DNA of 64,000 nucleotides, taken from NCBI RefSeq assembly GCF_009914755.1, contig NC_060933.1. The stretch is one strand, 5' to 3'. Position numbers and translations under genes: made by a program. Position 1 is the first letter of the stretch, and each line of letters starts with the position of its first letter. Shown here piece by piece: positions 31,988-32,091 of this stretch. Source of the stretch: the human T2T-CHM13v2.0 reference genome, Homo sapiens. The notes under the pieces were generated by a model. That model saw only the letters and a list, made by a program, of their open reading frames with translations, did no database searches and was not told where the DNA came from.

Positions 31988-32091
31988 ATTCCATTCCATT
32001 CCATACCATTCCTTTCCATTCCATTCCATTCCGAATGGAATGGAATGGAATGGAATGGAATGGAAAGGAATGGTATGGAATGGAATGGAAT
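31988..32091. repeat. Perfect 45-bp inverted repeat (31988-32032 / 32047-32091) with 14-nt loop
   Basis: The reverse complement of 31988-32032 is ggaatggaatggaatggaaaggaatggtatggaatggaatggaat, identical to 32047-32091. It includes two non-consensus pentamers (GAAAG, GTATG) at identical spacing. Confidence 0.9.
32021..32045. other. Strand-inversion breakpoint inside the satellite array
   Basis: The sequence reads ...ccattccattcc|gaatggaatgg... with the switch between 32032 and 32033 and no inserted foreign bases. It is the only orientation switch seen in the window. Confidence 0.97.

What the first reader, a model, noticed from the sequence alone, without database searches (positions are those of the whole stretch)
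31988..32091. 45-bp perfect hairpin at the breakpoint whose arms seem to have swapped diagnostic variants
Seen: 31988-32032 is the exact reverse complement of 32047-32091, including GAAAG-GAATG-GTATG. Elsewhere in the window GTATG is typical of the left-arm context (upstream of GTACGGAATAG, e.g. 33056, 35513). GAAAG is typical of the right-arm context (upstream of CAACTCGATTGCAATCG, e.g. 32637, 38470). Here both arms carry both variants, and the left arm's mirror partner at ~33030-33060 lacks the GAAAG. Inference: this is a footprint of fold-back template switching or quasi-palindrome correction (intrastrand conversion) at the junction, and so a direct clue to how satellite inversions form or are maintained.
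Basis: partly seen in the sequence, partly recalled or inferred. Interest (0 to 1): 0.8.

Follow-up and report, generated by a model that had tools for sequence, protein, structure and literature searches.

The report
Satellite inversion junction with copied arm
Where the chromosome 9 satellite flips strand, 45 bases on one side exactly mirror the other side, most likely through a known one-way copying slip between inverted repeats and not a two-way swap.

Summary
31988-32032 is the exact reverse complement of 32047-32091 (45 nt, 14-nt spacer), at the only strand switch in the window.

The "swapped variants" reading does not hold. The left arm's GGAAA-GGAAT-GGTAT combination is native: it occurs in 13 uninverted copies elsewhere on chr9 and in all 10 copies of this junction.

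The junction exists at exactly 10 chr9 loci, in four states:
- C and D are a plain two-piece join of the native left context to the canonical right context, sharing TCCGT.
- A (this window) and B have the (GGAAT)n run next to CAACTCG replaced by a mirror image of the left arm.

Flank trees split {A,B} from {C,D} with full support, so one event separates them. Only 5 of about 22,600 comparable right contexts carry this motif away from a junction, and those five are not close relatives. Chance is therefore unlikely.

Best reading: a one-way templated copy from left arm to right arm, that is, inverted-repeat arm homogenisation by short-range template switching. It probably happened after the inversion formed, but polarity is not settled. 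This is a new example of a known mutational process, of moderate-to-low interest.

The parts
31976..31987 (-). Left-context landmark CTATTCCGTACC (reverse complement GGTACGGAATAG). The perfect pairing ends here.
31988..32032 (-). Left arm: (ATTCC)3 ATACC ATTCC TTTCC (ATTCC)3, with variant bases at 32005 and 32013. This is native left-context sequence and the proposed template.
   Evidence: exact reverse complement; the same 42-mer occurs at 23 places genome-wide, 13 of them not at a junction; it is present in all 10 junction copies.
32033..32046 (.). Spacer (loop) GAATGGAATGGAAT. The strand switch lies at 32032/32033. The centre CCATTCCGAATGG is the C/D centre CCATTCCGTAATGG minus one T.
32047..32091 (+). 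Right arm: (GGAAT)3 GGAAA GGAAT GGTAT (GGAAT)3, with variant bases at 32066 and 32074. This is the proposed templated copy, and it replaces the canonical (GGAAT)n run.
   Evidence: Types C and D of the same junction have GTAAT GGAAT GGAAA (GGAAT)9 or GTAAT (GGAAT)10 here.
32092..32108 (+). Right-context landmark CAACTCGATTGCAATCG. The right flank from here on is orthologous to that of types C and D (1 mismatch in 360 nt).
33031..34259 (+). Best inverted partner of the left flank 30833-32032 (91.9% identity), lying 998 bp from the junction. It lacks the GGAAA variant. It is no closer to the left flank than the direct paralogue at 14584-15787, so it gives no evidence of a local fold-back duplication.

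Best explanation
The junction first formed as a simple join between an inverted left context and a canonical right context. The left context is ...GTACC(ATTCC)3 ATACC ATTCC TTTCC (ATTCC)n GTTCC..., and it already carried both variants. The right context is ...CATCC GTAAT GGAAT GGAAA (GGAAT)9 CAACTCG.... The join used the shared pentanucleotide TCCGT, and types C and D preserve this state.

The result was a quasi-palindrome: left arm against a plain (GGAAT)n run, with two or three mismatches. Later, in the ancestor of types A and B, a short-range template switch occurred. A nascent strand copying the right arm paired through (GGAAT)3/(ATTCC)3 with the other arm, copied it for about 13-49 nt, and returned. 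This overwrote the run beside CAACTCG with a mirror image of the left arm: GGAAA GGAAT GGTAT (GGAAT)3. Repair of a hairpin heteroduplex would give the same result.

This is one-way homogenisation of inverted-repeat arms (quasi-palindrome correction), from left to right. Pentamer slippage then produced the 14-nt spacer seen in this window (type A). Type B differs at the central base (C to G, which is equivalent to flipping the centre) and by one later G-to-C change in the right arm.

Shown: the four states, their tree, the native status of the left arm and the rarity of the motif. Inferred: the direction of change (C/D to A/B) and the molecular mechanism.
For: 1. The same junction occurs at exactly 10 chr9 loci in four states.
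2. Type C is explained base for base by native left context up to ...ATTCCGT and native right context from TCCGTAAT.... Uninverted left copies such as L011, L016 and L017 read (ATTCC)4 GTTCC. The canonical right motif CATCCGTAATGGAATGGAAAGG occurs 35 times in the window, and GGAAA followed by (GGAAT)9 recurs among its copies listed.
3. The left arm's variant pair is present in all 10 junction copies and at 13 non-junction places. Eight of the 13 were read and all were uninverted; five were not read.
4. {A,B} against {C,D} is one split with 100/99-100 support in both flanks, so one event suffices.
5. A's right flank differs from C and D by 1 mismatch in 360 nt. It differs by 15-25 mismatches from the five non-junction carriers of the 37-mer. 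The motif was therefore not inherited from them.
6. Rarity: 5 non-junction 37-mers against 22,523 canonical sites.
7. C and D already fold as long hairpins with 1-3 mismatches (dG -56.5 and -55.6 kcal/mol). This is the substrate that arm homogenisation needs.
8. The other head-to-head junction family shows only 19-22 nt perfect repeats made of consensus units (10 of its copies examined).
9. The mechanism is established. Template switching between non-identical inverted repeats gives arm homogenisation and spacer inversion (PMC8604942, abstract and passages read). Short-range template switching in great apes is reported in PMC7954356 (abstract only).
Against: - Polarity is not proven. The tree can only be rooted on the left flank, and both stems carry derived states there. 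The A/B stem lost two ATTCC units. The C/D stem carries about 3-5 changes. On branch length alone, a change on the C/D stem is somewhat more likely.
- The two lineages also differ by a patch about 480 nt to the right (window about 32509-32549). Ectopic conversion between paralogues therefore does occur in this region.
- The full motif does exist natively in two unrelated right-context families, and GGTAT(GGAAT)3CAACTCG occurs 91 times.
- The random-join null gives 1-2%, not a vanishing probability.
- Perfecting the arms did not increase predicted hairpin stability: A -53.2 and B -52.0 against C -56.5 and D -55.6 kcal/mol, on segments of slightly different length.
- One extra change, the loss of the T of GTAAT, must be placed in the same event or in a separate one.
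- Only one genome was available.
Confidence: 0.5

Rival explanations
1. The mirror arm was born with the inversion. A fold-back or replication-fork template switch copied about 49 nt of the left arm in reverse. A second switch, through (GGAAT)3 homology, then landed on a right context just before CAACTCG. This leaves a templated insertion at the junction, in the style of microhomology-mediated break-induced replication (MMBIR). On this view types A and B are primary. Types C and D arose later, when the palindrome centre broke and was repaired from a canonical right-context paralogue.
For: - Type B is symmetric about the strand switch itself, with 49-nt arms, one central base and one mismatch.
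- On the left flank the C/D stem carries more derived changes than the A/B stem.
- The lineages differ by a conversion-like patch at about 32509-32549, so patchy replacement does occur.
- Differences between A/B and C/D are about four times denser within about 175 nt of the junction than further out (my count from the site list).
Against: - C and D would have to regain exactly the canonical GTAAT GGAAT GGAAA (GGAAT)9, with the tract ending precisely at the strand switch. Only TCCG(T) is shared there.
- This needs two complex events, where the main reading needs two simple ones.
- The nearest uninverted relative of the left arm (L021) shares (ATTCC)5 and cccAtg with C and D, so A and B are also derived.
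Confidence: 0.25
2. There was no arm-to-arm copying. Either the right context at this locus natively carried GGAAA GGAAT GGTAT (GGAAT)3, or it received it by ectopic gene conversion from some other copy. The match with the left arm is then a coincidence of two rare native variants.
For: - The exact 37-mer occurs in 5 uninverted right contexts belonging to two families.
- GGTAT(GGAAT)3CAACTCG occurs 91 times.
- The 30-mer occurs 100 times genome-wide, on chromosomes 3, 4, 9, 13, 14, 15, 17, 20, 21 and 22.
- Random joins reach the observed level in 1-2% of trials.
- chr9 HSat3 has more than 200 breakpoints, so there were many tries (10.1101/2021.07.12.452052, passage in section 7).
Against: - The frequency in comparable contexts is about 5 in 22,600.
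- The carriers are not close relatives of this right flank: 15-25 mismatches per 360 nt, against 1 for C and D.
- The orthologous C and D copies lack the motif.
- The nearest source of this rare motif is the junction's own left arm, 14 nt away (44 nt between the two 30-mers).
- The many breakpoints reduce to few founder junctions. Of the first 50 listed head-to-head sites, 43 belong to one other family.
Confidence: 0.15
3. One reading: a reciprocal exchange, in which each arm donated its own diagnostic variant to the other. GAAAG went from right to left and GTATG from left to right.
For: Within this window alone, GAAAG is typical of the right context and GTATG of the left. The left arm's two window paralogues lack GAAAG.
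Against: - The left arm carries GAAAG in C and D junctions. There the right-arm GGAAA sits at a different, non-mirror position (type C) or is absent (type D).
- The left arm's variant pair also occurs at 13 non-junction places, of which the 8 read were uninverted.
Confidence: 0.03
4. Assembly artefact: a chimeric fold-back read created a false palindrome.
For: None was found. Palindromes in satellite DNA are hard to assemble (general knowledge).
Against: - The mirrored arm is present at 6 loci in three diverged lineages (A, B1 and B2). These sit inside megabase-scale duplicated blocks, with flanks that differ by about 0.5-1%.
Confidence: 0.02

Closest known systems
Quasi-palindrome correction, also called inverted-repeat arm homogenisation, by short-range template switching. 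The Ripley 1982 model is recalled and is also cited in PMC8604942. See also PMC8604942, PMC7954356 and PMC8794818.
   Same: An imperfect inverted repeat becomes perfect through a cluster of changes, each of which equals the complement of the other arm. The switch points lie in short homology. A sister state differs at the centre in the way a spacer inversion would produce.
   Different: - The tract and arms are longer here (45-49 nt) than typical reported events.
- The arms are pentamer repeats, so register and tract ends cannot be fixed.
- The setting is a satellite inversion junction, not unique DNA.
- The ancestral state is inferred from paralogous copies in one genome, not from orthologues.
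Fold-back inversion or MMBIR/FoSTeS junction, with microhomology and a templated insertion.
   Same: It is a head-to-head junction. The simplest state (C/D) shows 5-nt microhomology (TCCGT). The rival reading treats the 49-nt mirror segment as a templated insertion.
   Different: There is no evidence that the arms are a duplication of adjacent sequence. The left flank's inverted partner, 998 bp away, is 91.9% identical. That is no closer than a direct paralogue 16 kb away (90.9-93.4%).
Strand switches of the chr9 HSat3B5 array (Altemose et al., preprint 10.1101/2021.07.12.452052; also 10.64898/2026.07.22.740206).
   Same: This is one of the "over 200 inversion breakpoints" reported for that array. 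The window lies at chr9:69.25-69.32 Mb of T2T-CHM13.
   Different: The passages I read in those papers count breakpoints, and relate their number to array length. They give no junction sequences, junction families or mechanism.
Arm-to-arm gene conversion in large palindromes, for example the human Y ampliconic palindromes (recalled, not checked here).
   Same: Inverted arms are kept or made identical by copying one arm from the other.
   Different: Those arms are kilobases to megabases long and are continuously homogenised. Here a single short tract changed once, and mismatches persist in sister copies.

Membership tests
Inverted-repeat arm homogenisation by template switching (quasi-palindrome correction) | An imperfect inverted repeat existed before the event. 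| tested here: met
   Types C and D of the same junction fold as 50-nt-class hairpins with 1-3 mismatches. That they represent the earlier state is inferred, not proven.
Inverted-repeat arm homogenisation by template switching (quasi-palindrome correction) | A cluster of nearby changes, each the complement of the opposite arm, makes the arms perfect. | tested here: met
   Compared with types C and D, the right arm of type A gains GGAAA and GGTAT exactly opposite TTTCC and ATACC (32066 pairs with 32013, and 32074 with 32005).
Inverted-repeat arm homogenisation by template switching (quasi-palindrome correction) | The direction of change is established by an outgroup or ancestor. | tested here: inconclusive
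   The {A,B}|{C,D} split is fully supported. The root lies between the two groups, and both stems carry derived states. No close uninverted relative of the right flank was found among the 40 candidates scored out of 3063.
Inverted-repeat arm homogenisation by template switching (quasi-palindrome correction) | The donor arm is unchanged by the event (one-way copying). | tested here: met
   The left arm from GTACC to TTTCC is identical in all four states, and the same sequence occurs in uninverted copies.
Fold-back inversion (inverted duplication with spacer) | The two arms are copies of the same adjacent sequence, closer to each other than to other paralogues. | tested here: not met
   The left flank is 91.9% identical to its inverted partner at 33031-34259. 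It is 90.9-93.4% identical to a direct paralogue at 14584-15787.
Fold-back inversion (inverted duplication with spacer) | Short microhomology at the novel junction. | tested here: met
   In the type C and D junction, TCCGT is shared by the native left context (ATTCCGTTCC) and the native right context (CATCCGTAAT).
HSat3 of chr9 (subfamily B5) | A (CATTC)n-derived satellite within the chr9 pericentromeric array. | tested here: met
   Pentamer composition over the whole window. The window is chr9:69,254,001-69,318,000 (hub note). The subfamily label B5 is taken from the preprint passage and was not tested.

The most novel reading that the evidence does not exclude
The centre of this junction may be a recurrent hotspot of hairpin-driven template switching. 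Five independent lineages of one founder junction show four states: a plain join, a plain join without GGAAA, a perfected palindrome, and a perfected palindrome with the centre flipped. On this reading, satellite inversion junctions perfect and flip themselves over evolutionary time. The several hundred strand switches of chr9 HSat3 would then descend from only a handful of microhomology-mediated founder events, later multiplied by megabase duplications. That would make both the origin and the later remodelling of satellite inversions readable from junction families.
Probability: 0.3. Interest if true: 0.55.

Novelty: new member of a known kind. Interest (0 to 1): 0.35.

Why it matters
Complete assemblies showed that the chr9 HSat3 array holds hundreds of strand switches. 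The passages I read report only their number and its correlation with array length.

This junction shows three things.
- At least some switches are copies of one founder junction, spread by large duplications: 10 copies in 5 lineages.
- The simplest state looks like a microhomology join.
- The junction was later remodelled by a known mutational process, which made a 45-49 nt perfect palindrome.

Junction families could therefore be a practical way to count independent inversion events in satellites and to read how they arose. The individual event is an ordinary example of template-switch mutagenesis. Nothing suggests a function.

Tried and rejected
- Length-only null. Long perfect repeats made of pure pentamers arise in 1-2.5% of random joins, so length alone is weak. 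I replaced it with a null that also counts variant positions. One search showed that at least 2 variant positions inside any perfect repeat of 15 nt or more is common (12-22%), so that statistic was dropped too.
- Hairpin stability as a discriminator. All four states fold about equally well, so it was rejected.
- Rooting the right flank. The best non-junction matches were only 82-89% identical. The search scored 40 of 3063 candidates and missed known junction copies, so it gave no usable outgroup.
- Tail-to-tail junctions as extra comparators. Only one clean site was found genome-wide, on chr7, so they were of no use.
- Local fold-back duplication with a 1-kb spacer. Considered because of the inverted partner at 33031. 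Rejected because that partner is no closer than direct paralogues.
- Type B as a true flip of the centre. The flip is indistinguishable from a single C-to-G change at the central base, so it is not claimed.
- A placed inside B in the right-flank tree. This conflicts with the left-flank tree and is not visible in the substitution columns. Left unexplained.
- The first per-kilobase BLAST scan timed out and was rerun with megablast.
- Literature searches for junction-level work on HSat3 inversions listed no paper that appeared, from its title or abstract start, to describe junction sequences or template switching at HSat3 strand switches. I read passages of only three of these papers, and they give none. 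Supplements were not examined, and those of bioRxiv preprints are closed, so such data could exist there.

Full report
**1. Observation**

The window is HSat3 throughout and has one strand switch. It reads (ATTCC)n up to 32032 and (GGAAT)n from 32033 on. 31988-32032 is the exact reverse complement of 32047-32091. That gives 45-nt arms and a 14-nt spacer, GAATGGAATGGAAT. The next outward bases do not pair.

Written in GGAAT orientation, each arm is (GGAAT)3 GGAAA GGAAT GGTAT (GGAAT)3. After this the left arm continues into GGTACGGAATAG and the right arm into CAACTCGATTGCAATCG. The 15-mer GAAAGGAATGGTATG occurs nowhere else in the window. As single-stranded DNA the region folds into one 46-pair stem, with dG -53.2 kcal/mol and z = -13 against shuffles.

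**2. Chance**

Random joins of the two halves of the window were used as a null.
- A perfect inverted repeat of at least 45 nt arose in 19 of 1500 joins. It arose in 38 of 1500 when both ends had to be clean pentamer runs.
- Requiring at least two non-consensus positions as well gave 37 of 4000 and 80 of 4000.

The hairpin is therefore unusual at the 1-2% level on this null.

For comparison, the other abundant head-to-head junction family on chr9 has the centre ATTGCACAC. It accounts for 43 of the first 50 listed sites among 87 pattern hits per strand. In the 10 copies I fetched, its perfect repeats were only 19-22 nt and were made of consensus units alone.

**3. The same junction elsewhere**

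A search of the window's own assembly with 31940-32140 found the whole junction at 10 places on chr9. A pattern that requires TTTCC(ATTCC)3 followed within 13 nt by AATGGAATGG finds exactly these 10 loci and no others genome-wide.

They fall into five pairs of identical or near-identical copies. The offsets within pairs are 10.63, 10.58, 8.76, 8.76 and 0.59 Mb. The flanks are homologous over at least 1.5 kb on both sides.

The unit maps are:

| Type | Copies | Left of the switch | Right of the switch |
|---|---|---|---|
| A (this window and its twin) | 2 | ...TTTCC (ATTCC)3 | GAAT (GGAAT)5 GGAAA GGAAT GGTAT (GGAAT)3 |
| B | 4 | ...TTTCC (ATTCC)3 ATTC | (GGAAT)4 GGAAA GGAAT CGTAT (GGAAT)3 |
| C | 2 | ...TTTCC (ATTCC)4 | GTAAT GGAAT GGAAA (GGAAT)9 |
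| D | 2 | ...TTTCC (ATTCC)4 | GTAAT (GGAAT)10 |

The left arm from GTACC to TTTCC is identical in all ten copies. The best perfect inverted repeat is 45 nt in A, 29 nt in B, and 24 nt in C and D. B has 49-nt arms with one mismatch.

**4. The left arm is native**

The 42-mer CTATTCCGTACC(ATTCC)3 ATACC ATTCC TTTCC occurs 23 times in the genome. Ten of these are the junction copies and 13 are elsewhere.

I fetched 15 places that matched only the left half of the query.
- All 15 continue in the ATTCC orientation, with no strand switch.
- 14 carry ATACC ATTCC TTTCC exactly, and one has a 1-nt deletion in it.

The GAAAG in the left arm therefore belongs to a subfamily of the left context and was not acquired from the right arm. 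This removes the "swap".

**5. The right arm**

Types C and D carry what is otherwise the standard right context: CATCC GTAAT GGAAT GGAAA (GGAAT)9 CAACTCG. CATCCGTAATGGAATGGAAAGG occurs 35 times in the window, and the nine-unit run after GGAAA recurs among the copies listed.

The type C junction can be read base for base as two native pieces that share TCCGT:
- native left context up to ...ATTCCGT (uninverted relatives read (ATTCC)4 GTTCC);
- native right context from TCCGTAAT... onward.

In types A and B this run is replaced by the mirror image of the left arm.

Genome-wide counts of the relevant motifs are:
- the exact 37-mer GGAAAGGAATGGTAT(GGAAT)3CAACTCG: 7 times, of which 2 are the type A junctions and 5 are uninverted right contexts of two families;
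- GGTAT(GGAAT)3CAACTCG: 91 times, with 20 of 20 sampled copies uninverted;
- the canonical GGAAT(GGAAT)3CAACTCG: 22,523 times;
- the bare 30-mer: 100 times, on ten chromosomes. I classified only the 30 that fall under the two longer patterns.

At about 2 in 10,000 comparable sites, however, it cannot plausibly explain a match 14 nt from an inverted copy of the same rare motif (44 nt between the two 30-mers).

The five non-junction carriers are also not relatives of this locus. Over the first 360 nt of right flank they differ from type A by 15-25 mismatches, like any generic copy in the window (8-38). Types C and D differ from A by 1.

**6. Tree**

Maximum-likelihood trees of either flank separate {A,B} from {C,D} with 100/99-100 support. 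The mirrored and plain right arms therefore map to one change.

With uninverted left-context copies added, the ten junction copies form a clade (100/99) together with one plain copy, L021. The base of that clade is unresolved.

Outgroup states show derived changes on both stems:
- A/B lost two ATTCC units about 60 nt left of the arm;
- C/D carry about 3-5 changes;
- L021 shares two features with C/D.

The tree does not settle which state is ancestral.

**7. Mechanism**

I favour the following order.
1. A microhomology (TCCGT) join created the inversion junction, in the C/D state. This was a quasi-palindrome with two or three mismatches that already folds strongly: -56.5 and -55.6 kcal/mol.
2. 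In the A/B ancestor, a short-range template switch copied the left arm into the right arm. The switch points lay in the (GGAAT)3/(ATTCC)3 homology next to CAACTCG and in the pentamer run near the centre.

If the tract ran from the centre outward (49 nt), this one event accounts for four things: the new GGAAA, the GGTAT, their spacing, and the loss of the T of GTAAT. Type A then differs from a symmetric intermediate only by pentamer slippage, one unit fewer on the left and two more on the right. That slippage produces the 14-nt spacer.

Type B differs from that intermediate at the central base (C to G). This is what a flip of the centre would give, but it is equally a point change. Type B also has G to C in GGTAT.

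This is the arm homogenisation, with optional spacer inversion, described for template switching between non-identical inverted repeats (PMC8604942, abstract and passages; PMC7954356 and PMC8794818, abstracts only).

**8. The main rival**

The main rival reverses the order. The mirror segment would be a templated insertion made during the inversion itself, and C/D would arise later by repair from a canonical paralogue.

In its favour:
- type B is symmetric about the switch;
- the C/D stem is longer;
- a conversion-like patch distinguishes the lineages at about 32509-32549;
- A/B-versus-C/D differences are denser near the junction (my count).

Against it: C/D would have to regain the canonical sequence exactly up to the strand switch, where almost no homology is available on the left.

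In both orders the right arm is a copy of the left arm. I put that shared conclusion at about 0.75.

**9. What is not seen**

There is no sign of continuing maintenance. The single arm mismatch of type B is present in all four B copies, whose flanks have diverged. C and D remain imperfect.

Perfect arms are not predicted to be more stable than the imperfect ones.

The left flank's inverted partner lies 998 bp to the right at 33031-34259 (91.9% identity). It is no closer than a direct paralogue at 14584-15787 (90.9-93.4%). A local fold-back duplication is therefore not supported.

**10. Literature**

- The preprint of Altemose et al. states that the chr9 HSat3B5 array and beta-satellite arrays "contain over 200 inversion breakpoints" (10.1101/2021.07.12.452052, passage in section 7).
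- A 2026 preprint reports hundreds of strand switches in CEN09 HSat3. Their number correlates with array length (r = 0.90), and the authors suggest they are by-products of array expansion (10.64898/2026.07.22.740206, passage in section 6).
- Altemose et al. 2014 set aside reads matching both strands as possible inversion breakpoints (PMC4022460, passage).
- Searches for HSat3 together with "template switching", "inversion breakpoints" or "palindrom" listed no paper that appeared, from title or abstract start, to be a junction-level description. I read passages of only the three papers above. Supplements were not seen.

**11. Verdict**

This is a new example of a known mutational process in a setting where it has not been described. 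It has some value as a way to count founder inversions in satellites and to read how they arose.

Noticed in passing
G000:C9, ten loci: 53795345, 53839640, 54755000, 58656787, 62555422, 62599717, 65334663, 69285940 (window 31940), 72221074, 72813275: The junction copies come in identical or near-identical pairs at offsets of 10,629,153, 10,579,663, 8,760,077 (twice) and 592,201 bp. Types C and D lie 44,295 bp apart in both of their blocks. The chr9 HSat3 array therefore contains megabase-scale duplicated blocks that carry strand switches with them. This would explain why the number of switches scales with array length.
   Followed up: partly
G000:C9, for example 52339059, 52915245, 53239664 (loci L051-L060): There is a second, much more abundant head-to-head junction family, with centre CCATTGCACACGG. 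It occurs in both orientations along the array and makes up 43 of the first 50 listed sites among 87 pattern hits per strand. The many chr9 HSat3 strand switches may descend from very few founder junctions.
   Followed up: partly
window about 32509-32549 (alignment columns 2184-2238 of the ten junction loci): Types A and B differ from types C and D by a compact replaced patch (12 substitutions plus a 14-column gap), in an otherwise about 99% identical right flank. The C/D version resembles the sequence upstream of the plain right-context copies L026 and L028. This looks like an ectopic conversion patch between paralogues. Its direction is unknown.
   Followed up: no
window 1-32032 versus 32033-64000: The two sides of the switch have different long-range periodicity. 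The right side shows about 8,461 bp (also 8,456). The left side shows about 2,492, 6,705 and 9,197 bp. No long mirror diagonal links the halves. Even so, counts of short motifs on the two strands are almost equal (for example 13/13, 63/63, 16/16).
   Followed up: no
window 26677 (minus strand): One right-context copy reads GGAGA GGAAT GGTAT (GGAAT)9 CAACTCG. This is a near relative of the mirrored motif in an uninverted setting inside the window. Its origin was not examined.
   Followed up: no
G000:C7:58746830-58746871 (L061): This is the only clean tail-to-tail pentamer junction in the genome under the pattern (GGAAT)3G N0-12 C(ATTCC)3. It has a 21-nt perfect inverted repeat and a 2-nt spacer.
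   Followed up: no
right-flank tree of the ten junction loci: Type A is placed inside type B, as sister to L010, on the right flank, but outside B on the left flank. If this is real, it would imply recombination between copies, or a second correction of CGTAT back to GGTAT. The substitution columns do not show it clearly.
   Followed up: partly
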